This document shows, in pieces, positions 1 through 14,940 of a DNA stretch of 64,000 nt (within the stretch, counting starts at the first letter, position 1; each line of letters begins with the position of its first letter). A model generated the notes under the pieces. It saw only the letters and a program-made list of their open reading frames with translations, was not told where the DNA came from and did not search any database. The translations under genes and the position numbers were made by a program. Source of the stretch: Thainema sp. (GTDB lineage Bacteria > Cyanobacteriota > Cyanobacteriia > Phormidesmidales > Phormidesmidaceae); the NCBI GenBank assembly GCA_052168235.1, contig JBQLZK010000007.1, forward strand, positions 32,001-96,000, given 5' to 3'.

Positions 1-417
1 GCAAATTCCATCAAGACATTTATTAGTGAGATTGGCATTTTTGGCAAAGAACCTGCGATCGCAACTGTCCAATCAGCATTGATGAATCGTCGCTACCAGA
101 CAAACCGGGATCTGATCCCAGTTGAAATCTGGGACGTGCTGCAAACGGCAAAAGGAACCGAGTCGTGGAAATCGCTAGCAACTCGTGCAGGACTTCAAGG
201 CACCAGCAATATTCACGTTGGTCAGCGGGCGCTCAGTCGCGATCGCTTATTTGCACTGGCAACCGTGCTGGAACATCGGGAACTACAGGATATTGCTACT
301 AGCGATGTGTACTGGGATGAAATTGTCGCCATTGAACCCCAGGGAGAAAAGCAGGTTTATGACCTGACTATTCCAGAAACCCACAACTTCGTCGCCAACG
401 ACATCTGTGTTCACAAC
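1..417 (+). mobile_element. C-terminal part of intein 1 in the DnaB Walker A (GK|T) site; probably endonuclease-containing
   Basis: Ends [21 protein letters not shown] followed by T (+1 nucleophile) and SFVLNIAR. The preceding FISEIGIFG...TNRDLIP segment is typical of the end of a LAGLIDADG region. The N-terminus lies outside the window. Confidence 0.9.
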
Positions 418-1623
418 ACCAGCTTTGTACTCAACATTGCTCGTAATATTGCCGCATTCCATAAGTTACCCGTGGCGGTCTATAGCTTAGAGATGTCAAA
501 AGAGCAGCTCGTTTACCGGATGCTGTCAAGCGAGGTGCAAATCGAGAGCGGTCGCCTACGCGCCGGACGGATTAGCCAAAACGAGTGGGAACCTCTCGGA
601 CACGGTATTAGTGGCCTGTCGCAGTTACCGATTTTTATTGACGATACACCCAATATTTCTGTGACCGAAATGCGCTCAAAAGCGCGTCGCCTTCAGGCAG
701 AGTCGGGTGGCGCATTGGGTTTAATCTTGATTGACTATCTACAGCTCATGGAAGGCTCCGGTGATAACCGGGTACAGGAACTGTCGAAAATAACGCGATC
801 GCTAAAAGGGATGGCACGAGAATTAAATGTGCCTGTAATTGCCCTATCTCAGCTCAGCCGAGGTGTTGAATCACGTACCAATAAACGCCCAATGATGAGC
901 GACCTACGAGAATGCGTCACGGGTGACACGCTTGTGGTGCTGGCTGATGGTCGTCGAATGCCGATTCAAGAGTTGGTTGGCACAACCCCTGAAGTGATCA
1001 GCATGGACGCTAAGGGTAAATTGGTTAAAGCCGAGTCTGATTTAGTCTGGGCTGTTGGTCGTAAACCAATCTATGAGTTAAAGACTCGCAGCGGTAAAGT
1101 TCTCCGAGCAACCGCACAACATCGGCTCTATACCCTAGATGGTTGGCAGAGACTACAAGATCTGAAGCTTGGTCATCGGATTGCGGTTGCAAGGCAATTG
1201 CCAGAACCTTGTGCTAGCGGTAGCGCTCATTTCAAATTTGCGCCTTCTCGTACTGTCGTTGCGAATTATGCAGAACTGCTCAACAGCACTGCTTTGGCAG
1301 ACTTAGCTACAACTGATCTGTTCTGGGATGAAATTGTCTCCATTGAACCCGCTGATGAAGAGATGGTTTATGACCTGACGGTTCCAGAAACCTCATCTTG
1401 GCTAGCGGATGGACTTGTCTCTCACAACTCAGGTGCGATTGAGCAAGATGCAGACCTGATCATGATGCTGTATCGAGAAGAATATTACGATCCAGATACC
1501 CCCGATCGCGGTATTGCCGAGGTAATCATTACCAAGCACCGGAATGGCCCAGTCGGCACCGTGCGCTTGCTATTTGAGCCGCAGTTTACGCTGTTCCGTA
1601 ATCTGGCTGCGAGTCGGAGTTAA
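1..1623 (+). CDS. dnaB: Replicative DNA helicase DnaB, 5'-partial, interrupted by two inteins
   Basis: Frame is open from base 1. Extein motifs [50 protein letters not shown] and KHRNGPVG. Confidence 0.97.
913..1428 (+). mobile_element. Intein 2, a 172-aa mini-intein in the DnaB SDLRE|SG site
   Basis: Starts CVTGDTLV, has block B ATAQHRL, ends [21 protein letters not shown] followed by S. Too short to hold a homing endonuclease. Confidence 0.95.
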
Positions 1624-1662: not shown

Positions 1663-2118
1663 ATGGTGAAAGGTACAGAGGTTAATCAGTTCAACCTATA
1701 CCATGCCGACTATCTCAAGTGGATTGAGGCAACAGTTGAGCAGTTGCAGCGTCGCGACTACGCCAGCGTTGACTGGGAGAATGTGATTGAGGAATTTAAG
1801 GAGATGGCGCGACGGGATCGCCAAGCTTTGGAGAGCAATCTCGTCGTGGTTTTGACGCATTTGCTGAAGTGGCAGTATCAGCCTCAACATCGCAGCGGTA
1901 GCTGGCATGGCAGCACCGTTGAACATCGCAGACGAATTCGCAAACTCCTGCGCGATTCTCCCAGCCTTAAGCCTTACCTAACAGAGGTATTTGCCGAATG
2001 CTATGCCGATGCGGTGGAGCAGACCAGCGCGGAAACGGAATTGTTCGCCGATACGTTTCCAGAATCCTGTCCATATTCGGTTGTAGACGTTTTAGACTCC
2101 AGATTTTTACCAAGCTGA
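1663..2118 (+). CDS. DUF29 family protein
   Basis: LYHADYLKW...VDWENVIEE...HLLKWQYQP...SW...EHR...SPSLK...FPESCPY pattern. Confidence 0.9.
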   Translation: MVKGTEVNQFNLYHADYLKWIEATVEQLQRRDYASVDWENVIEEFKEMARRDRQALESNLVVVLTHLLKWQYQPQHRSGSWHGSTVEHRRRIRKLLRDSPSLKPYLTEVFAECYADAVEQTSAETELFADTFPESCPYSVVDVLDSRFLPS

Positions 2119-2200: not shown

Positions 2201-3727
2201 CTACTGCATACGGTCAATCGTGCGGTATTGAATTGCTTCCGCGACGTGGTGTGCTTGGAGATCTGCTACGCCTTCCAAATCAGCAATTGTGCGGGAAACC
2301 TTGAGAATGCGATCGGTGGCACGGGCAGAGAGACCAAGTTTGCGAATCGCATTTTCCAGTAGTGTGCGAGACGTATCATCAAGGGCACACCACTTGCGGA
2401 TGTGACGGCTCTGCATTTCGGCGTTGCACTGGATCGGTTCATCCTGAAATCGCTGACGGGTGAGATCGCGGGCGGCCTGAACGCGATCGCGTATGGGTCG
2501 TGAGGGTTCACCTTGGGGTTGCTGGGTCATTTCCTCCGGTTTTAAACGATTGACCATCACCTGCAAGTCAATCCGATCCATCAGCGGCCCGGACAGCTTG
2601 GCCCAGTATTGCTCTCGACCGCGTGGTGTACAGGTACAAGCCTGCACCGTATCACCAAAGTAGCCGCAGGGACAGGGGTTGGTGCTGGCAATCAGGGTAA
2701 ACTGGGCCGGAAACTGGACAGTTTGGCGAGTGCGGGAAATTGTCACCATGCCGTCTTCTAGTGGCTGGCGCAGGAATTCCAATACGTCTCGCTTAAACTC
2801 GGTCAGCTCATCCAGAAACAGCACCCCACGATGGGCCAGAGAAATCTCACCCGGTTTAGGAAAGCTGCCGCCACCAACGAGGGAAGGGCCAGAGGCCGAG
2901 TGGTGCGGACTGCGAAAGGGTCGCTGACTGACCAAGCTGCCGCGATCGCGCAATAAACCCGCTACGGAATGCACCTGGGTCACCTCCAGCGCTTCAGCAA
3001 AGTTGAGCGGTGGCAAGATCCCCGGTAAGCGCCGCGCCAGCATGGTTTTACCGCTCCCAGGAGGACCGACAAATATTAAATTATGACCTCCGGCAGCGGC
3101 AATTTCGAGCGCTCGTCTCGCTTGAGCTTGACCTTTGACATCTTTCAAGTCGAGAACATTGAGTTGCGATCGCACCAGCTCTTTTTCGCCATCCAGTTGA
3201 ATCGGCTGATGCTGATGGGGATTATTCAGTAAATCGGCCACGTCTGAGAGGTGTTTGCAGCCGTATACGTCTAAGCCTTTAACCACAGCAGCTTCCAGGG
3301 CATTATCTTTGGGTACCACTAACCCTTTGATACCGAGTTGTTTCGCGGTAGCTGCGATCGCAAGTACGCCTGCCACAGGTCGCAAGCTGCCGTCAAGGGA
3401 GAGTTCACCCAGAAACAGGTAATCACCGAGTAGGAGCGGACTGACCTGTTCAGAAGCGGCAAGAACGGCGACGCTGATCGGCAAATCAAAGCTGGGGCCT
3501 TCTTTACGCAAGTCGGCAGGGGTAAGGTTAATTACAATCTTCCGCATCGGGAAGACGTAACCGGAATTCTTGAGTGCGGCTTTGACTCGTTCGCGGGCTT
3601 CTTGAACGGCGGTATCGGGTAGGCCAACGACGACGATGCCAGGGAGTCCACCGGATACGTCCACTTCTACGCCAACTTTAACGGCCTCAATCCCAATCAG
3701 CGATGCGCTCCACGTTCTAGCCAGCAT
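2201..3727 (-). CDS. comM: YifB/ComM family Mg-chelatase-like AAA+ ATPase
   Basis: GLPDTAVQEARERV, NLTPADLRKEG, GPPGSGKTMLA, PHHSAS, GVLFLDE, NPCPCGY. Confidence 0.93.
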   Translation of the reverse strand: MLARTWSASLIGIEAVKVGVEVDVSGGLPGIVVVGLPDTAVQEARERVKAALKNSGYVFPMRKIVINLTPADLRKEGPSFDLPISVAVLAASEQVSPLLLGDYLFLGELSLDGSLRPVAGVLAIAATAKQLGIKGLVVPKDNALEAAVVKGLDVYGCKHLSDVADLLNNPHQHQPIQLDGEKELVRSQLNVLDLKDVKGQAQARRALEIAAAGGHNLIFVGPPGSGKTMLARRLPGILPPLNFAEALEVTQVHSVAGLLRDRGSLVSQRPFRSPHHSASGPSLVGGGSFPKPGEISLAHRGVLFLDELTEFKRDVLEFLRQPLEDGMVTISRTRQTVQFPAQFTLIASTNPCPCGYFGDTVQACTCTPRGREQYWAKLSGPLMDRIDLQVMVNRLKPEEMTQQPQGEPSRPIRDRVQAARDLTRQRFQDEPIQCNAEMQSRHIRKWCALDDTSRTLLENAIRKLGLSARATDRILKVSRTIADLEGVADLQAHHVAEAIQYRTIDRMQ

Positions 3728-3894
3728 AGATTTTTAGACACCCTGTTAATGACGCGAGAGTGGTCAACCGCTCGCAATTTGCTCTTTTAGTAGAGTGCCC
3801 TACTGGTGTGGGGAAGCAACAGCCAAATCTGTTTCTATAGTTGATTCGAGTGCAACATATTTTATAGCCATCTTGCAAGAAACCTTAGAAGATC

Positions 3895-4272
3895 TCACGA
3901 TTTATTTTCTTGACGAAGAATATCTTTAATTGCTTTAGCATCTTTCAAAGCTTGCTTGCTTTTGCTGATGTAATTATTTAGACAGTTATCTTCATAATCT
4001 GCATCGTTTCGACTTCCTCTAAGACGACCAAGCCACTCTCCTGCACGTTGAAGTTCCCTATTACTACTGCTCTGCAAACTGGTAATCACATCACGATGGA
4101 CATTAGCATCTTTGTTTTGCATACCTAAGTGGCTTCTAGCCACACAAAAAGCAGAATAATAAGCTCTACTTATTGATGAGCGAGCTTTTGCTTCTCGTCT
4201 TTCTTCCTTTTTTTGGCTATCTAGAAATAATTCATTGGCCACTTCAAGATAGTCGTCCCAATCAAATTTCAT
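3895..4272 (-). CDS. HEPN domain protein (RxxADY type)
   Basis: FDWDDYLEVA...RSSISRAYYSAF...H...LRGSRNDADY. Start overlaps the upstream ORF by 11 nt. Confidence 0.85.
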   Translation of the reverse strand: MKFDWDDYLEVANELFLDSQKKEERREAKARSSISRAYYSAFCVARSHLGMQNKDANVHRDVITSLQSSSNRELQRAGEWLGRLRGSRNDADYEDNCLNNYISKSKQALKDAKAIKDILRQENKS

Positions 4273-4906
4273 GGAATTCTAAATCTATTGAAACCACTTG
4301 TCTAATCTCAAAAGGAACATCTAACCACCACTGTTCATCTAGCTCATCTAGCTTACATAAATACTTATCAAACTTTTCGCAATCTGGATCAGTAGTTACT
4401 TGAACAGGAATTTTAATCCATAATTTTTCCCATGCCTGAACTTCAGGATCTACTACATGTTCTAACTGCAAACGGATATTTGGGAAAAAAGATCTTATTT
4501 TTGTTTTGGCATCAATCAAAAAACCAACAAGTTTAGCCTCTCTTGAGACAAAATCAAAGATCTCAGTGGCATTTATCAAATTAAAATTTTGGCTTATAAT
4601 CTCATGAATTCTCGTCGATTTATTATAGACAGGTTCTTCTAATAGAATATTTAGCTTATTTGAGAAAACCTCTAAATCTTCTGATTTATAGCTCAGAGAG
4701 AACAAAGATAGTCTCTCTATACTTCGCGCAGTGTAAAAAGCTTCCAAAATTCGTGATACTGTATCGTGAGAGGATGCCGTTACTGACCTTGACATCAAGC
4801 CTGACTTACTTCTATACTTGGTCACTTTGGAAATATTTGTCACTTTTTTGCTGTCATCTTGCTTCCCAAAATCGGGTTTACTACCAATTGTATATTTCCT
4901 ATTCAT
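4262..4906 (-). CDS. Uncharacterised protein coupled to the HEPN gene (possible antitoxin/partner)
   Basis: 214-aa ORF in AT-rich DNA. C-terminal FFP..LQLE...DPE...LWI.I...LDELDEQWW pattern is one I recall upstream of this HEPN type. Stop overlaps the HEPN start. Confidence 0.7.
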   Translation of the reverse strand: MNRKYTIGSKPDFGKQDDSKKVTNISKVTKYRSKSGLMSRSVTASSHDTVSRILEAFYTARSIERLSLFSLSYKSEDLEVFSNKLNILLEEPVYNKSTRIHEIISQNFNLINATEIFDFVSREAKLVGFLIDAKTKIRSFFPNIRLQLEHVVDPEVQAWEKLWIKIPVQVTTDPDCEKFDKYLCKLDELDEQWWLDVPFEIRQVVSIDLEFHEI

Positions 4907-4919
4907 AGATCATGCCTCA

Positions 4920-5618
4920 CTAATCTTCTGCCTTAGAATCAGATCTGTCTGAAACGAGTAGAATATGCGAATCTTTCAAATAATTTTCCAGTGCAAACTC
5001 TTTAGCTTCTGCCTGATCAATAGCTTCTCTAAGAATCTGTAAATCATTGAAGTCAAGTGCTAAGAATATCTCTTTGGCAGATTCAAAGTCCCTATATTCA
5101 ATTTTTAGCGAATGTACAATGATAGCTTTATCGAAATGGTATGATTTCCCACCAGAGAAAATAGGTCTTATATCAGTTGTTATATTTACATCTGTCATCA
5201 ACCGCTCATTTTCCAAGGCGGCTTTAATGGATTTCACCGATATGTCAATACTTTCTCCATGCTTTAATATCAGTGATAATCTTTCTTTGAAAATTTGCAC
5301 ATATTCACCTGCATTCTCATAATTAAGAAAGACAGATTTAGCAGCAGTATCAACCCAGAAATTATCATCTGTTTCACCTTGGCTACTAGAAAAAATATTA
5401 TCTTTCGCTGCAAAAAATGCGATCACAGAATCTAAGATTATTTGAGCTTCTCCTATATCCAATTCAGAATCATCGAGATCTTCAACGGTGATTTGGGGAG
5501 AGCGAAATCCTGGACTTAATTTTTTTATAGAAGAAAGTAAATCGTTAAATTCTGATTCAGTTATTGAAGCTAGTTTTTCGAAACCTGCCTTATGTTGATC
5601 CGGAATCCTAAAAGTCAT
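4920..5618 (-). CDS. Uncharacterised protein with a helical N-domain and COMM-domain-like C-terminus
   Basis: Likely start ATG 5618 (MTFRIPDQ; ORF track starts at 5705). C-terminus reads as beta-beta-beta-alpha: LMTDVNITTDIRPIF / KAIIVHSLKIEY / EIFLALD / FNDLQILREAIDQAEAKEFAL. Confidence 0.65.
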   Translation of the reverse strand: MTFRIPDQHKAGFEKLASITESEFNDLLSSIKKLSPGFRSPQITVEDLDDSELDIGEAQIILDSVIAFFAAKDNIFSSSQGETDDNFWVDTAAKSVFLNYENAGEYVQIFKERLSLILKHGESIDISVKSIKAALENERLMTDVNITTDIRPIFSGGKSYHFDKAIIVHSLKIEYRDFESAKEIFLALDFNDLQILREAIDQAEAKEFALENYLKDSHILLVSDRSDSKAED

Positions 5619-5815
5619 AGCTAAAGTAAGCTTAATAATTGGTTTGTATACTATATATAGAGGTTTGGTGGGACTAAAAACGCTACTCGTAGTATGAGAC
5701 TTCAATTTTTGCTAATGCTTATGAAGCTAACATCTAGCCTAACCTACCAGTCAATTTTTTGAGAATAAATAAATGTCGTTTATCCTGCAAAGGAGATTCA
5801 GTAGAGACGTAAACC

Positions 5816-6383
5816 ATGTCCATCTCATCACGGATGCAAGCCGTTCAGTCGCCAATTATTCCCATTGTGGGAGAACTTATTCGGCAGCATCCCGGCACCA
5901 TTTCATTGGGCCAAGGTGTTGTCTCCTATCCGCCGCCGCCCGAAAGCATCGCCATGCTGACTAGCTTTGCTGCCGATCCGGCGAACCATCTCTACAAAGC
6001 CGTTAAGGGGATTCCGCCGCTGCTGGAGGTGATTCGCGCCAAGCTGGAAACCGATAACGGCATCGAGCTGACTGACGATCAGCGCATTGTCGCCACCGCA
6101 GGCAGCAACATGGCCTTTATGAATGTGGTACTAGCCATCACCTCACCTGGCAATGAAATTATTCTGCAAACGCCTTACTATTTCAATCATGAAATGGCGA
6201 TCGCAGTTTCTGGATGTGAAGCGATCTGTGTACTCACCGATGATCAGTATCACTTGAGATTGGATGCGATCGCATAAGCCATCACGCCCCAAACCAAAGC
6301 GGATGAAGCCTATGAGTACTTCACCTACGATGAAGTGCCCCGCATTTCTCCCGGTCGGACGGCCAACAGTCAAGAACACATAT
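5816..6383 (+). pseudogene. Class I/II PLP-dependent aminotransferase pseudogene
   Basis: TISLGQG, TAGSNMAF and PYYFNHEM, then in-frame TAA at 6275-6277. It continues AITPQTKA|DEAYEYFTY with the SPNNPTG region missing, and ends before the PLP lysine motif. Confidence 0.85.
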
Positions 6384-11511: not shown

Positions 11512-14500
11512 TTATCGCTGGGTTTCGTATGATAGCAGAGTGAAGACCGCTTCAGCCGTCAATGGTTTGGCAAACAGGTAGCCCTGACCCAGTTCACAGT
11601 CGAGTTCCTGTAGCCAATCAAGCTGTTGGGAGGTTTCGATTCCTTCTGCGATCGCATCTATTTCTAGCTGGTTGCTCAGTCCAATAATGGCCTCGACAAT
11701 TTTATAATTCTTGTCTCCCTGTTGCATGGTGCGGACAAAAGACTGATCGATTTTCAAATAATCGGTCGGCAAGTTATAGAGATAGCTGAGCGATGAGTAA
11801 CCTGTACCAAAATCATCGATACTGATTTGGATACCCAGTTCTCTCAGTTGTTCCAGCAGGCCGATTGTGCTCTCAATATCTTTAATCAGCATGCTTTCAG
11901 TAATCTCTAGTGTCAGATATTGAGCCTCCAGCCCGCTGCGTTCCAGACTCTGCACAATAGTTTGCAGTAAATCAGGTTGACGTAAATCCTGAAACGATAA
12001 GTTAATGCTGATCTTGAGATCAGACCGATCCGGAAACTGCGATCGCCATCCGACAAGCTGTTGGCAGGCGGCCTGGAGTAGCCACTGATCGATGGCGACA
12101 ATCAGCCCCGTTTCTTCAGCAATGGGAATAAAATCAGCCGGTGACACCAATCCCTGCGTGGGGTGCTGCCAGCGAATCAGTGCTTCGAATCCAATCAGGG
12201 TTTGAGAACTGAGCGTTACAATCGGCTGATAGTGAATAATGAGTTCTTGCTGATCAATCGCTCGGCGCAGATCATGCTCCAGATTCATCCGCTTCAGCGC
12301 TTGAGTGTGCATATCTGCATCAAAAATTTCATACTTGGCTCGTCCCTGAGCCTTGGCTCGATAGAGGGCAATATCGGCATCTCGAAGCAGATCCGAGGCA
12401 TCGCTATAGGCGGCTGAGCCTAAAACAATGCCGATGCTAGTCGTGGTAAAAATATTGCGCCCATCAATCAGGTGTGCTGTCTCAAACTCTGCAAAGATGC
12501 GCTCCGCGACCTGCACAGCGGTTTGAATTCCTTCAATTTCTTCTAACAGAATGACAAATTCGTCGCCACCGAGACGGGCTGCCAAATCGGTAGTACGCAG
12601 GATGTGCTGTAGTTTACTCGCCACCGTGATCAGTAACTGATCGCCAGCTAGATGCCCCAAGCTATCGTTGATGACTTTGAATTGATCCAAATCGAGGAAT
12701 AGGACGGCAAATTGATAGTCAGGCAATCGCTGGGTGCGGTGAATCGCCAGTTCTAGTCGATTGATCAACAAGCTGCGGTTAGGCAAATCGGTCAGCGCGT
12801 CATGCAGCGCATTGTGAATCAGTTGGGCTTCAACCTGCTTGCGTTCTGTAATATCCAAATTGGCCCCTACCATCCGCCAAGGATGGCCGTTGGCATCTCT
12901 CTGCACCAGCGCATAGGAGGCTATGTGACGGACATTGCCGTCGGGCCAGATGATCCGAAACTCAATTTCATAGTCCTGTTCACCCGCCAGCGCCTTTTGC
13001 TCCATCGCTTGAACTGCCAGTAAATCATCCGCATAAACTCTGGCTTGCCATGCGTCGTAAACACTGCCAAGTTCATCAGGACGGATGCCGTAAATTTCGT
13101 ACATGCGGTCATCCCAGATCAAGCGATCGCTGACCAAATCCAATTCCCAGATGCCCATGTTGGCAGATTTTGCCGCTAGCCCCAGGCGATCGGTCAAATC
13201 CTGAAGCTGATCTTCGGTCTGCTTGCGTTCTGTAATATCCCGTGCCAGGCCGGCTCGTCGCGTCACCTTCCCATCTGCATCAAATACGGGAAAACCGCGA
13301 TCGCGAATCCAGCGAATGCTGCCATCCGGGTGAACCACTCGGTATTCGATTTCAAACGGAACACCGGGCTGGCCAAGAGCCTGATCCACTCGCTGACGAT
13401 CATCAGGATGAATCGTATCAAGAAACCCGCTCGGATCACGCGTCAAACTCTCGCAACTGCGTCCCCAGATTTGTTCGTAGGCTTGGCTGACATAAAGAAG
13501 CTGGTTAATCTCGGCATCGGTTAGCCAAAAGACTTCTTGAATATTTTCGGCCAGTTGGCGAAACTTTTCTTCGCTATCTCGTAAGGCTTGCTCAGCTCGG
13601 CTGCGTTCAGTCGTTTCCACCACAATAATGCCGATGCCGATCGTCTGCTCAGACTCCGACTTCAAGGGAAAATAGGAGGCCAGCCAGGTGCGCGTGACGC
13701 CTGGCAATTTAGGCGTTTCACCAACGACTTCAAATCCAGGCATTGCTTCTCCTTTACTCAAAACCTGCTGGAATACTTCTCTTTGTTTGGGGGCTAGATC
13801 CGGCACGATATCCCACGGCGTTTTACCAATGTGGTCAGCCACTGGAACGCCATTGATTTCGGCTAATGCATCATTAATCAAGGTAAAACGCAACTGATCA
13901 TCCATGACGCAGATCCCAACGGGGGAGCTGCTGACAAACGTATCCAGCAACCGCTGCTGTTCTAGTAAATCTTGCTCTAGCGTTTTGCGATCGCTAATGT
14001 CTAAATTGGCTCCAATCATGCGCAGCGGTTGTCCTGCCGCATCTCGCTGAACTAATGCATACGCTTCAATGTGGCGAATTTCTCCATTGGGCCGAACAAT
14101 TCGAAATTCAATTTCGTAGTCTTTCTCCCCAGTTAACGCTTGTTGCAGGGCCAATTGGCAGGCCGGAAAATCATCGGGGTGGACGCCAGCTTTCCAGGCG
14201 TCGTAGGTTCCGCTGAAATCTTCGGGCCGAATGCCATACAGTTCATACATGCGATCGTCCCAGACCACAAAGTCATGAACAACATCCCAATCCCAACTGC
14301 CCATGCGGGCGGATCTAAAGGCCAGCCGCAGTCGCTCTTCGTTGTTAACTAGCTCAGCATTCAAGGTTTGCAATTGGCCAAACGAAGCCTGCAGTTGGTC
14401 AGCCATTTGACTAAATGATCGGGCCAGCTCGCCCACTGCGCCGTTCCGAGCCGTCATGCCGGTGACTCGCTTTTTGCCTCGCTGAAAATCTCCTTGAGCC

Positions 14501-14940
14501 ACCTCCTTTGCCGCCTGACTAAGTTGCAGTAGCGGTTGAGCCATCCAGCGAACCGTGAGCATACTGGAACCCGCCGCTAATACCAACGCTCCTAAACCAA
14601 ACCAGATGATACTGCGCGTATTGGCATCAACTCCTCCGGCTGGCAAACTGTCATCCGTTTCCCATTGAGTACCGGGATAGTTGCCTTGAACATTGGTGAA
14701 TAAGGTAAAGCGAACTACTTCAATTCCGTGATGCGATCGCACCCAATGCGGGCTAAAGCTACAGAAATCTCTTGGGACATTGGAATACCCAAGTTCAATA
14801 TCACAAACCGCCGTCTGGCCAGTACGAATCGATAACCATCCCGGCAGTCCCGCAGTCGGCGATATGTGAACAACAAAGGGAAAGATGAGAATATGCCGCA
14901 GGGAAACATTCGCTAGCCAACGACTTGCTCGATTTGCCAT
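11512..14940 (-). CDS. HAMP-PAS(x4)-GGDEF-EAL c-di-GMP enzyme with a reduced sensory domain
   Basis: HAMP (QPLLQLSQAA...GELARSFSQM), PAS/PAC repeats, ARLGGDEF, GFEALIRW, IDDFGTGYSSL. Confidence 0.93.
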   Translation of the reverse strand: MANRASRWLANVSLRHILIFPFVVHISPTAGLPGWLSIRTGQTAVCDIELGYSNVPRDFCSFSPHWVRSHHGIEVVRFTLFTNVQGNYPGTQWETDDSLPAGGVDANTRSIIWFGLGALVLAAGSSMLTVRWMAQPLLQLSQAAKEVAQGDFQRGKKRVTGMTARNGAVGELARSFSQMADQLQASFGQLQTLNAELVNNEERLRLAFRSARMGSWDWDVVHDFVVWDDRMYELYGIRPEDFSGTYDAWKAGVHPDDFPACQLALQQALTGEKDYEIEFRIVRPNGEIRHIEAYALVQRDAAGQPLRMIGANLDISDRKTLEQDLLEQQRLLDTFVSSSPVGICVMDDQLRFTLINDALAEINGVPVADHIGKTPWDIVPDLAPKQREVFQQVLSKGEAMPGFEVVGETPKLPGVTRTWLASYFPLKSESEQTIGIGIIVVETTERSRAEQALRDSEEKFRQLAENIQEVFWLTDAEINQLLYVSQAYEQIWGRSCESLTRDPSGFLDTIHPDDRQRVDQALGQPGVPFEIEYRVVHPDGSIRWIRDRGFPVFDADGKVTRRAGLARDITERKQTEDQLQDLTDRLGLAAKSANMGIWELDLVSDRLIWDDRMYEIYGIRPDELGSVYDAWQARVYADDLLAVQAMEQKALAGEQDYEIEFRIIWPDGNVRHIASYALVQRDANGHPWRMVGANLDITERKQVEAQLIHNALHDALTDLPNRSLLINRLELAIHRTQRLPDYQFAVLFLDLDQFKVINDSLGHLAGDQLLITVASKLQHILRTTDLAARLGGDEFVILLEEIEGIQTAVQVAERIFAEFETAHLIDGRNIFTTTSIGIVLGSAAYSDASDLLRDADIALYRAKAQGRAKYEIFDADMHTQALKRMNLEHDLRRAIDQQELIIHYQPIVTLSSQTLIGFEALIRWQHPTQGLVSPADFIPIAEETGLIVAIDQWLLQAACQQLVGWRSQFPDRSDLKISINLSFQDLRQPDLLQTIVQSLERSGLEAQYLTLEITESMLIKDIESTIGLLEQLRELGIQISIDDFGTGYSSLSYLYNLPTDYLKIDQSFVRTMQQGDKNYKIVEAIIGLSNQLEIDAIAEGIETSQQLDWLQELDCELGQGYLFAKPLTAEAVFTLLSYETQR

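What the first reader, a model, noticed from the sequence alone, without database searches (positions are those of the whole stretch)
4920..5618. Possible bacterial COMMD-like protein
Seen: about 150 aa of predicted helical sequence, then three alternating-pattern strands (LMTDVNITTDIRPIF, KAIIVHSLKIEY, EIFLALD) and a long amphipathic helix (FNDLQILREAIDQAEAKEFALENYL). Known: eukaryotic COMMD proteins are about 200 aa, with a helical N-domain plus a three-strand/one-helix COMM domain that forms swapped dimers and rings. Inference: this is a prokaryotic structural relative, although the COMMD 'W-R-V-D' Trp is absent. Its link to a HEPN gene would suggest a role in conflict or immunity.
Basis: inference. 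Interest (0 to 1): 0.7.

Follow-up and report, generated by a model that had tools for sequence, protein, structure and literature searches.

The report
COMMD-like ring gene heading toxin–antitoxin cassette
This gene encodes a bacterial relative of the eukaryotic COMMD trafficking proteins, and here, as in many other bacteria, it sits at the head of a small three-gene cassette whose other two genes look like a swappable toxin and its neutraliser, which hints at what these proteins do in bacteria.

Summary
The observation and the fold call both hold. Window 4920-5618 (-) encodes a 232-aa protein. It matches the solved bacterial COMMD-like protein MBK5214510 (PDB 9q6a) by sequence (E 3e-9; family profile 2.4e-40) and by fold (Foldseek E 4e-12, TM 0.74-0.81), and then human COMMD chains. 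Prokaryotic COMMD-like proteins were published in 2025-26, so the protein itself is a new member of a known family whose function is stated to be unknown.

The context appears to be new. In 78 unique loci from at least 14 phyla, the COMMD-like gene is the first gene of a tight three-gene cassette. Gene 3 is a swappable toxin or effector domain: DUF7689, HEPN, RES, PIN, Fic, an MBL fold or HNH. Gene 2 is its cognate partner and carries an extra N-terminal extension. The same gene-2/gene-3 pairs also occur alone without that extension. In congeneric genomes, a 951-nt indel removes exactly the COMMD-like gene plus the extension.

The best reading is an accessory ring scaffold, chaperone or sensor of tripartite toxin-antitoxin-like modules, analogous to SecB in TAC systems. 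Binding and toxicity are inferred, not shown.

The parts
4920..5618 (-). Gene 1: COMMD-like protein, 232 aa. It has a helical HN-type N-domain (residues ~1-135) and a COMM-type C-domain (three strands at 140-188, helix at 190-216).
   Evidence: ORF and translation. AF2 model pLDDT 91.7. PDB 9q6a phmmer E 3e-9; family profile E 2.4e-40. Foldseek E 3.9e-12, TM 0.74-0.81.
4613..4906 (-). Gene 2, N-terminal extension (residues ~1-98 of the 214-aa protein). It is predicted disordered or low-confidence. An extension of this kind is found only in the COMMD-linked forms of this gene family.
   Evidence: AF2 pLDDT <50 for residues 1-47 and 56-73. COMMD-linked relatives match the family model from position 1, stand-alone relatives only from about position 57. 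The indel in congeneric genomes removes this part together with gene 1. The boundary at residue ~98 is my estimate from alignment A4 and the stand-alone protein of L144.
4262..4612 (-). Gene 2, C-terminal domain (residues ~99-214). It is the cognate partner of the HEPN-like gene and the presumed neutraliser.
   Evidence: Confident alpha/beta domain, pLDDT ~90. It co-occurs with the HEPN-like gene in 5 of 6 COMMD-linked and 23 of 24 stand-alone loci. It has no Pfam, PDB-sequence or Foldseek match. It shows only weak nucleotidyltransferase-fold resemblance, Z 3.9-4.8.
3895..4272 (-). Gene 3: HEPN-like protein, 125 aa, overlapping gene 2 by 11 nt. It is the presumed toxin or effector.
   Evidence: PADLOC HEPN_IX 1.3e-6; phrog_5176 1.6e-11. 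Family profile vs PDB 9xbd 7e-10, 9xbc 3.6e-9, Retron-Kva2 HEPN 1.5e-5. Six relatives pass Pfam HEPN PF05168. Invariant residues in 8 sequences include R31, S35, R36, H59, R85, R88, D92 and Y93; there is no His 4-6 residues after R85 or R88.
3895..5815 (.). Low-GC island that holds the three genes and their upstream intergenic region.
   Evidence: GC is 0.35-0.41 in the 1-kb windows that cover 3501-6000, against about 0.50-0.55 in the flanks. No DNA match to this stretch was found in 20 relatives, including a same-genus genome whose flank is 87% identical up to window position ~3822.

Best explanation
Gene 1 (4920-5618, minus strand) is a genuine member of the prokaryotic COMMD-like family. 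By homology to the solved MBK5214510 it should form COMM-domain dimers that assemble into 8- or 10-subunit rings. It is the first gene of a three-gene operon. Gene 3 is a HEPN-like effector or toxin. Gene 2 is its cognate partner (presumed neutraliser), and it carries an extra, largely disordered N-terminal extension. Across bacteria the COMMD-like gene is a conserved accessory component placed in front of many different toxin/neutraliser pairs.

The most likely mechanism is that the COMMD-like ring holds the N-terminal extension of the gene-2 protein through its peripheral HN domains. This would control the neutraliser's stability or availability, and hence release of the toxin, for example on phage infection. 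The arrangement would be analogous to the SecB-like chaperone and the antitoxin's ChAD tail in toxin-antitoxin-chaperone (TAC) systems.

Shown here: fold and family membership; operon architecture; cassette swapping; joint gain or loss of gene 1 with the extension. Inferred: ring formation by this particular protein; physical binding of the extension; toxicity of gene 3 and its neutralisation by gene 2; any role in defence.
For: Identity: as given under the observation check.

Operon: in 78 unique loci with a full-length COMMD-like gene, the gap from gene 1 to gene 2 has a median of -0.5 nt (68 of 78 are <=20 nt). The gap from gene 2 to gene 3 has a median of -4 nt (65 of 76 are <=20 nt). The gap from gene 3 to gene 4 has a median of 87 nt (9 of 47 are <=20 nt).

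Directional linkage: ORFs in the 1.5 kb downstream have a homologue in the same region of another locus in 67 of 75 loci; the eight largest clusters listed are same-strand except one of 5 loci. Upstream this holds for 15 of 71 loci, and the listed clusters join close kin.

Gene 3 carries toxin or effector domains. Pfam on 81 gene-3 proteins gave DUF7689 25, HEPN 6, RES 5, PIN 2, DUF5615 1, Fic/DOC 1 and weak metallo-beta-lactamase 6. NCBIfam and PADLOC add resemblance of the MBL fold to LmuA, Avs1a and 6A-MBL, a PtuB-type HNH, and a retron-effector-like NDT.

Where gene 2 has a Pfam hit, it is an antitoxin-type domain in the C-terminal half: SocA_Panacea, DUF433, DUF4325. The clusters of gene-2 C-termini co-vary with the gene-3 clusters (26, 8, 8, 5 ... 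concordant pairs).

The same pairs exist alone. DUF7689 pairs without a COMMD-like gene have a shorter N-extension on the partner: median 31 aa, with 10 of 21 at <=20 aa. The 27 COMMD-linked ones have a median of 70 aa and all are >=34 aa. For this window's own pair type, 24 of 30 fetched loci are stand-alone. They match the gene-2 model only from about position 57, and 23 of the 24 have the HEPN gene. All 6 COMMD-linked loci match from position 1-2.

Congeneric genomes share 85%-identical flanks. They differ by a 951-nt stretch, replaced by 71 nt, that comprises exactly gene-2 codons 1-61, the COMMD-like gene and 66 nt upstream.

Cassette swap: L002 (DUF7689 pair) and L003/L018 (DUF4325 plus another gene 3) have COMMD-like proteins 58-67% identical and share a homologous upstream ORF. 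Their gene-2 N-terminal parts are homologous (E 4.6e-11 and 6.4e-8), but the C-terminal domains are unrelated.

Fusions: in L011-L014 and, in another phylum, L136, an HN domain alone is fused to the DUF7689-partner domain and is followed by DUF7689.

On the tree, COMMD-like proteins group largely by phylum while the gene-3 type changes 31 times over 25 types.

[quoted passage not shown] The TAC logic is taken from the abstract of bioRxiv 10.1101/2024.02.24.581848.
Against: No experiment or confident prediction shows that the COMMD-like protein touches the gene-2 protein.

The gene-2 extensions share no motif that I could demonstrate. W[LIVMF] occurred 40 times against 34.2 +/- 5.1 in shuffles. 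The window's own extension has no Trp at all.

The window's HEPN-like protein lacks the canonical Rx4-6H motif (Tyr stands where His is expected), so nuclease activity and toxicity are uncertain.

The gene-2 C-domain has no recognisable antitoxin family.

Liu et al. report that AlphaFold found no complex between COMMD-like proteins and neighbouring gene products in Myxococcota, Chlamydia and Haloarcula. For Myxococcota they favour a link to type VI-like secretion genes.

Some stand-alone partners also carry long N-terminal parts: the 221-226 aa forms and the ~49-aa extensions. An extension by itself is therefore not diagnostic.

Gene calls and start codons are from my own simple ORF rules. Related genomes are not independent. 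75 of the loci were picked through one conserved motif of the COMMD-like protein.
Confidence: 0.55

Rival explanations
1. The COMMD-like protein is the transcriptional regulator of the cassette. It would be a first-gene repressor in the manner of omega in the omega-epsilon-zeta system or PaaR2 in the paaR2-paaA2-parE2 system (both recalled, not checked here), and would bind the operon's promoter.
For: It is always the first gene of the operon. Liu et al. note that Whirly and Pur-alpha nucleic-acid-binding proteins have superficially similar beta-sheet-plus-helix dimers. The family profile weakly touches CarD-family regulators (E 1.2e-3 and 2.1e-3).
Against: The family is acidic: median pI is 5.29, only 7 of 147 members are above 7, and this protein is 4.6. 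Liu et al. state that COMMD-like proteins appear to lack the surface residues needed to bind DNA or RNA. No DNA-binding Pfam domain was found. This reading does not explain why the gene-2 extension is gained and lost together with gene 1, nor the HN-partner fusions.
Confidence: 0.1
2. The COMMD-like ring is mainly the trigger sensor or an activating platform. It would recognise a phage or stress signal and assemble or activate the effector, rather than stabilise the neutraliser.
For: The architecture of one conserved component plus swappable effector cassettes is typical of defence systems, with effector types shared with Lamassu, Avs, retron and Septu effectors. In TAC systems the chaperone itself is the phage sensor (abstract). 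The low-GC, strain-specific island and the patchy distribution (17 of 401, 7 of 301 and 3 of 301 genomes) both fit a defence gene.
Against: There is no phage data. The family is not in PADLOC v2.0. NCBIfam release 20 gives only an insignificant match for this protein (E 0.033, 13 bits against a cut-off of 150). No homologue was found in phage or plasmid collections with one query. The reading overlaps the best explanation and is not exclusive of it.
Confidence: 0.2
3. The adjacency has no functional meaning. Toxin-antitoxin pairs would simply tend to insert next to COMMD-like genes, or the COMMD-like gene would work in secretion or trafficking, as proposed for Myxococcota.
For: Liu et al. find type VI-like genes near Myxococcota COMMD-like genes and no predicted complexes with neighbours. 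The toxin-antitoxin pairs are mobile and also occur alone.
Against: The coupling is translational in scale, with overlaps or gaps of a few nucleotides in 68 of 78 and 65 of 76 loci. It is strictly downstream and on the same strand. It holds across at least 14 phyla. It includes a linked extension in gene 2 and HN-partner fusion proteins. No PAAR, VgrG or Rhs-type trafficking domain appeared in the Pfam hits of the 81 gene-3 proteins scanned.
Confidence: 0.08

Closest known systems
Prokaryotic COMMD-like proteins (Liu et al., Nat Commun 2026, PMC13392464; e.g. MBK5214510, PDB 9q6a/9q6c/9q6d)
   Same: Same length class, and the same HN helical domain plus three-strand/one-helix COMM domain. Direct sequence homology (E 3e-9; family profile 2.4e-40) and fold match (TM 0.74-0.81). 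The paper lists Cyanobacteria among the phyla that carry them.
   Different: 20-21% identity over the Foldseek alignment with 9q6a/9q6c. The paper counts 250 bacterial proteins; the profile search here finds 4319 cluster representatives. The paper calls the function unclear and discusses type VI-like neighbours in Myxococcota. [quoted passage not shown]
Eukaryotic COMMD1-10 of the Commander complex (Pfam COMM_domain PF07258)
   Same: Same two-domain fold. Foldseek E 1.7e-5 to 1.3e-4 to human COMMD chains, and COMM-domain-only TMt 0.78 to 6bp6. HN domains bind N-terminal regions of partner proteins (CCDC22/93), which parallels the proposed binding of the gene-2 extension.
   Different: No Pfam PF07258 match. 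Global TM is only ~0.3 because the domain orientation differs. It would be a homo-oligomer rather than a hetero-decamer. No CCDC22/93, VPS35L or VPS26C homologues exist in prokaryotes according to Liu et al.. The context here is a toxin-antitoxin-like operon, not membrane trafficking.
Toxin-antitoxin-chaperone (TAC) systems with a SecB-like chaperone (Mets et al., bioRxiv 10.1101/2024.02.24.581848; abstract and outline seen)
   Same: Tripartite logic. A conserved oligomeric accessory protein combines with different toxin-antitoxin 'warheads', and the antitoxin carries an extra unstructured segment that is absent from two-gene relatives.
   Different: The accessory protein is COMMD-like, not SecB-like. 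It is encoded first, not last. The extra segment is N-terminal, not a C-terminal ChAD. Binding, addiction and phage sensing are untested here.
HEPN-MNT toxin-antitoxin pairs (e.g. HI0073/HI0074, PDB 1no5)
   Same: A small HEPN-family protein is encoded immediately after, and overlapping, a partner gene. The partner's C-domain gives weak nucleotidyltransferase-fold matches, including 1no5 (Z 3.9) and 1ylq (Z 4.4).
   Different: The partner has no Pfam nucleotidyltransferase match, and I saw no G-S ... D-x-D signature in alignment A4 (the signature itself is recalled). The HEPN lacks Rx4-6H. Z scores below 5.5 are in the range the tool calls common.

Membership tests
Prokaryotic COMMD-like family (Liu et al. 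2026) | N-terminal all-helical HN domain followed by a COMM domain made of a three-stranded antiparallel sheet and an extended helix | tested here: met
   AF2 model with pLDDT 91.7: helices 7-135, strands 140-153, 164-176 and 181-188, helix 190-216.
Prokaryotic COMMD-like family (Liu et al. 2026) | Homology to an experimentally solved member | tested here: met
   9q6a: phmmer E 3e-9 over residues 1-210; family profile E 2.4e-40; Foldseek E 3.9e-12, TMq 0.74, TMt 0.79.
Prokaryotic COMMD-like family (Liu et al. 2026) | Obligate COMM-domain dimer that assembles into closed rings of 8 or 10 subunits | not tested
Ring formation is inferred from homology to MBK5214510 only.
Eukaryotic COMMD (Pfam COMM_domain PF07258) | Match to the Pfam COMM_domain model | tested here: not met
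   No Pfam family at E<=1 for this protein. PF07258 was not among the families matched by the 33 relatives scanned at E<=0.01. One distant Atlas cluster (score 0.77, Myxococcota) has PF07258 on 23% of its members.
Eukaryotic COMMD (Pfam COMM_domain PF07258) | Fold shared with solved COMMD subunits | tested here: met
   8f2r and 8p0w chains at E 1.7e-5 to 4.4e-5, prob 1.0; 6bp6 COMM domain at TMt 0.78.
HEPN superfamily (gene 3) | Sequence match to HEPN models or structures | tested here: met
   PADLOC HEPN_IX 1.3e-6. Family profile vs 9xbd 7e-10. Six close relatives pass Pfam PF05168. The window's own protein has no Pfam hit at E<=1.
HEPN superfamily (gene 3) | Rx4-6H catalytic motif (motif recalled from the literature on HEPN domains) | tested here: not met
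   The conserved stretch is L-R-x-x-R-x-x-x-D-Y. No His lies 4-6 residues after R85 or R88 in the window's protein or as a conserved column. An invariant His is at position 59 instead.
Toxin-antitoxin-chaperone (TAC) systems | SecB-like chaperone as the third component | tested here: not met
   Gene 1 is COMMD-like, not SecB-like. The resemblance is one of logic only.
Type II toxin-antitoxin module (genes 2 and 3) | Adjacent, co-oriented, tightly coupled small genes that recur as a pair | tested here: met
   11-nt overlap in the window. The pair recurs in 5 of 6 COMMD-linked and 23 of 24 stand-alone loci.
Type II toxin-antitoxin module (genes 2 and 3) | Toxicity of one partner and its neutralisation by the other | not testable with these tools
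   This needs expression assays.
HEPN-MNT pair | The partner is a minimal nucleotidyltransferase | tested here: inconclusive
   No Pfam hit. VIA-align gives nucleotidyltransferase-fold chains only at Z 3.9-4.8, among other folds at similar Z.

The most novel reading that the evidence does not exclude
Prokaryotic COMMD-like rings are the common hub of a widespread and so far unrecognised class of tripartite toxin-antitoxin or abortive-infection systems. In these systems the HN domains clamp a disordered N-terminal tail of the neutraliser. The way the eukaryotic Commander COMMD ring grips the N-terminal regions of CCDC22 and CCDC93 would then descend from this bacterial conflict-system interaction.
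Probability: 0.35. Interest if true: 0.85.

Novelty: new variant of a known kind. Interest (0 to 1): 0.72.

Why it matters
[quoted passage not shown] A conserved, directional linkage to swappable toxin/neutraliser pairs gives the first concrete and testable functional context. It predicts a specific binding partner, the gene-2 N-terminal extension. It also adds a possible new accessory component to toxin-antitoxin and anti-phage biology. If the link holds, the core ring of the eukaryotic Commander trafficking complex would join the list of eukaryotic machines whose ancestors worked in prokaryotic conflict systems.

Tried and rejected
- Complex prediction of two copies of gene 1 with gene 2 gave 'no answer' (score 0.00 against a mark of 0.32). 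It counts neither for nor against binding.
- A shared motif in the gene-2 extensions was not found. W[LIVMF] was not enriched (40 observed against 34.2 +/- 5.1 in shuffles).
- The word-index homology searches found almost nothing: 1 relative for gene 1 and none for gene 2. The exhaustive profile search was needed.
A 33-row sub-alignment worked.
- Gene-2 fold: Foldseek found nothing at E<=1e-3. VIA-align's best Z was 5.4. The Atlas gave only unnamed clusters at 0.89.
- Mobility: no tblastn hit for family member P0005 in the plasmid or phage collections (one query only). No flanking repeats of note, and no terminator-like site.
- Earlier notes of this scan held nothing.
- Literature searches found nothing relevant. 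'DUF7689' gave 0 papers. 'COMM domain' with 'toxin-antitoxin' gave 1 irrelevant paper. 'COMMD' with 'prokaryotic' and 'HEPN' gave 1 irrelevant paper. 'COMMD' with 'anti-phage' gave 0. 'NetFlax' with 'tripartite' gave 2, neither on COMMD.
- These searches cover only the held library of open PMC papers and bioRxiv. Supplements of bioRxiv preprints could not be seen.
Full report
**What is there**

On the minus strand of the window lie three tightly packed genes:
- 4920-5618, 232 aa from the ATG.
- 4262-4906, 214 aa, starting 13 nt after the first gene's stop.
- 3895-4272, 125 aa, overlapping the second gene by 11 nt.

They occupy a low-GC stretch, 0.35-0.41 against about 0.50-0.55 in the flanks. 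On one side is a ComM/Mg-chelatase-like gene (2201-3727). On the other is a short aminotransferase-like ORF (5816-6277). These two names come from my reading of the translations and were not scanned.

**Checking the observation**

An AlphaFold2 model on a 147-row alignment (pLDDT 91.7, pTM 0.81) has helices up to residue 135, then strands 140-153, 164-176 and 181-188, then a helix at 190-216.

**Identity of gene 1**

- Pfam, PADLOC and PHROGs give nothing significant, and NCBIfam only an insignificant match (E 0.033).
- A sequence search of the PDB hits one entry, the 'COMMD-like protein MBK5214510' (9q6a), at E 3e-9 over residues 1-210.
- The family profile hits the same entry at 2.4e-40.
- Foldseek ranks the 9q6a/9q6c chains first (E 3.9e-12 to 1.2e-9, TM 0.69-0.81). 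Human COMMD subunits of 8f2r and 8p0w follow (E about 2e-5, prob 1.0). The isolated Commd9 COMM domain aligns at TMt 0.78.

The low global TM to the human chains (~0.3) reflects a different relative position of the two domains.

These bacterial proteins were described by Liu et al. (PMC13392464; I read the outline and sections 6-8 and 10-12). [quoted passage not shown] For Myxococcota they note type VI-like neighbours. AlphaFold gave them no complex between COMMD-like proteins and neighbouring gene products.

**Size and spread of the family**

- A profile of this protein plus its one word-index hit found 4319 representatives at E<=1e-3 among 1.84 billion, and the 150 listed are mostly 212-240 aa.
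- In the 147-row alignment R151 is invariant. P6, K129, D149, P152, F154, H169, L171, D189, D192, R202, A203 and K206 are at least 90% conserved. This protein has Q at position 202.
- The distribution is patchy: 17 of 401 genomes sampled in the window's own phylum, 7 of 301 in a second phylum and 3 of 301 in a third.
- The window's genome has one copy.
- The island has no DNA match in 20 relatives, including a same-genus genome.

**The context**

I collected 93 loci: 18 from the phylum search and 75 from species-representative genomes across many phyla. I then called downstream ORFs with simple rules of my own. 79 loci have a full-length COMMD-like gene, and 78 of these are unique.

| Junction | Median gap | Gaps <=20 nt |
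|---|---|---|
| Gene 1 to gene 2 | -0.5 nt | 68 of 78 |
| Gene 2 to gene 3 | -4 nt | 65 of 76 |
| Gene 3 to gene 4 | 87 nt | 9 of 47 |

As a control, I compared ORFs in the 1.5 kb on each side. Upstream ORFs have a homologue at another locus in only 15 of 71 loci, and the listed clusters join close relatives. Downstream ORFs do so in 67 of 75 loci, and the eight largest clusters listed are same-strand except one of 5 loci.

Pfam on 81 gene-3 proteins gave:

| Hit | Count |
|---|---|
| DUF7689 | 25 |
| HEPN | 6 |
| RES | 5 |
| PIN | 2 |
| DUF5615 | 1 |
| Fic/DOC | 1 |
| Weak metallo-beta-lactamase | 6 |
| SocA_Panacea (after fusion loci) | 2 |
| Spurious | 2 |
| No hit | 31 |

NCBIfam and PADLOC relate the MBL-fold group to LmuA, Avs1a and 6A-MBL effectors. 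They relate one gene 3 to PtuB-type HNH nucleases and one to retron-type NDT effectors.

Of 89 gene-2 proteins, 77 have no Pfam hit. The informative hits are antitoxin-type domains placed in the C-terminal half: SocA_Panacea, DUF433 and DUF4325. Clusters of gene-2 C-termini pair one-to-one with clusters of gene 3 (26, 8, 8, 5 ... concordant loci). Genes 2 and 3 therefore behave as cognate toxin/neutraliser-like pairs, and the COMMD-like gene is a constant placed in front of them.

**Evidence that gene 1 is functionally tied to gene 2**

1. *The pairs also occur alone, with a shorter gene 2.*
   - For the DUF7689 type, the partner's N-extension has a median of 31 aa in 21 stand-alone loci (10 of them at <=20 aa). 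In 27 COMMD-linked loci the median is 70 aa and all are >=34 aa. The Mann-Whitney p of 6e-5 overstates the case, because related genomes are not independent and my ORF starts are the most upstream ones.
   - For the window's own type, the family occurs in 33 of 401 genomes. Of the 30 loci fetched, 6 are COMMD-linked and match the gene-2 model from position 1-2. The other 24 are stand-alone and match only from about position 57. 23 of those 24 are followed by the HEPN-like gene, and 12 are just 110-130 aa long.
2. *An indel in congeneric genomes.* Two such genomes share 85%-identical flanks. They differ by a 951-nt stretch, replaced by 71 nt in the other genome. That stretch holds exactly gene-2 codons 1-61, the COMMD-like gene and 66 nt upstream.
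3. *A cassette swap.* Loci L002, L003 and L018 have COMMD-like proteins 58-67% identical and share a homologous upstream ORF. Their gene-2 N-terminal parts are homologous (E 4.6e-11 and 6.4e-8). Their gene-2 C-domains and their gene 3 are unrelated. The recombination point therefore lies between the extension and the neutraliser domain.
4. *Fusion proteins.* In L011-L014, and in L136 from another phylum, a single protein joins an HN domain alone to the DUF7689-partner domain and is followed by DUF7689.
5. *The tree.* On a tree of the 78 proteins, COMMD-like sequences group largely by phylum. One example is a cyanobacterial clade of 19 with support 97, which contains the window's protein on a long branch. 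Meanwhile the 25 gene-3 types change at least 31 times.

**The window's genes 2 and 3**

The gene-2 model is disordered over residues 1-73 and confident from about residue 100 onward. It has no clear structural relative. Foldseek finds nothing. VIA-align gives Z<=5.4, with a recurrent but weak nucleotidyltransferase theme that includes the MNT protein HI0073.

Gene 3 is HEPN-like. However, it has L-R-x-x-R-x-x-x-D-Y rather than Rx4-6H, with an invariant His at position 59. Its activity is therefore open.

**Mechanism**

The best-supported reading is an accessory oligomeric scaffold, chaperone or sensor for tripartite toxin-antitoxin-like modules.
- The ring would hold the N-terminal extension of the neutraliser, probably through the HN domains.
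- This parallels SecB-like chaperones and ChAD tails in TAC systems (abstract).
- It also parallels the statement that Commander's HN domains bind N-terminal regions of CCDC proteins (passages).
- The family's acidity (median pI 5.29) and Liu et al.'s remark on surface residues argue against a DNA-binding repressor.

Binding, toxicity, neutralisation and defence are all inferred. The one complex prediction gave no answer and is not evidence either way.

**Novelty**

The protein is a new member of a published family. I did not find the tripartite cassette with a COMMD-like first gene in any of the following:
- the two COMMD-like papers, including the 4 supplementary files held for Liu et al.;
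- PADLOC v2.0;
- NCBIfam release 20, for this protein only;
- five literature searches.

These sources are limited, so 'not in print' holds only for them.

**Caveats**

- Gene calls and start codons come from my own ORF rules.
- 75 of the loci were selected by one motif of the COMMD-like protein.
- The motif-independent phylum samples are small: 10, 6 and 3 full-length loci. All 19 have gene 2 and 18 have a coupled gene 3.
- Clades distant from this one (archaea, most Myxococcota) were not examined.

Noticed in passing
L011-L014 (own phylum, one genus) and L136 (another phylum): Proteins of 237-249 aa join a COMMD-type HN domain alone (no COMM domain) to the DUF7689-partner domain, and a DUF7689 gene follows directly. 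L015-L017 carry a further shortened form with an in-frame TAG upstream.
   Followed up: partly
L144 vs L140 (congeneric genomes): The two loci sit at the same chromosomal site with 85%-identical flanks. One has the bare partner+HEPN pair. The other has a 951-nt insert that carries the COMMD-like gene plus the first 61 codons of gene 2.
   Followed up: yes
L153, L155-L158, L161-L164, L169: Stand-alone relatives of gene 2 of 221-226 aa carry a different ~100-aa N-terminal part. It does not match the COMMD-linked extension or the COMMD model. Its nature is unknown.
   Followed up: no
L010 and L131: In L010 a COMMD-like gene is truncated at model position 182 and fused to ~210 extra residues; the small gene after it has a weak retropepsin-like hit. 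In L131, gene 3 has a weak aspartyl-protease hit. These may be a further effector type.
   Followed up: no
window 5816-6277 (+): An aminotransferase-like ORF of only 153 aa looks truncated. An 81%-identical copy of this stretch lies on another contig of the same genome (G000:C16:86142-86621). This suggests rearrangement beside the island.
   Followed up: no
window 1-1623 (+): A DnaB-like helicase ORF is interrupted by intein-like segments (Cys ... His-Asn junctions). This is my reading of the translation.
   Followed up: no
window 1663-2118 (+): A DUF29 protein (Pfam PF01724, E 2.4e-51) lies between the helicase gene and the ComM-like gene.
   Followed up: no
window 11512-14940 (-): A 1142-aa ORF looks by eye like a multi-PAS GGDEF-EAL signalling protein. 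It was not scanned.
   Followed up: no
Pfam DUF7689 (PF24738) genes, e.g. L002:2741-3211: This is the commonest gene 3 of the cassettes. It has a conserved Y-N-C ... H-x-A-R pattern that suggests a Cys/His enzyme. No paper in the held library mentions the family. It occurs in 29 of 401 genomes of the phylum, always next to the same partner domain in the loci examined.
   Followed up: partly
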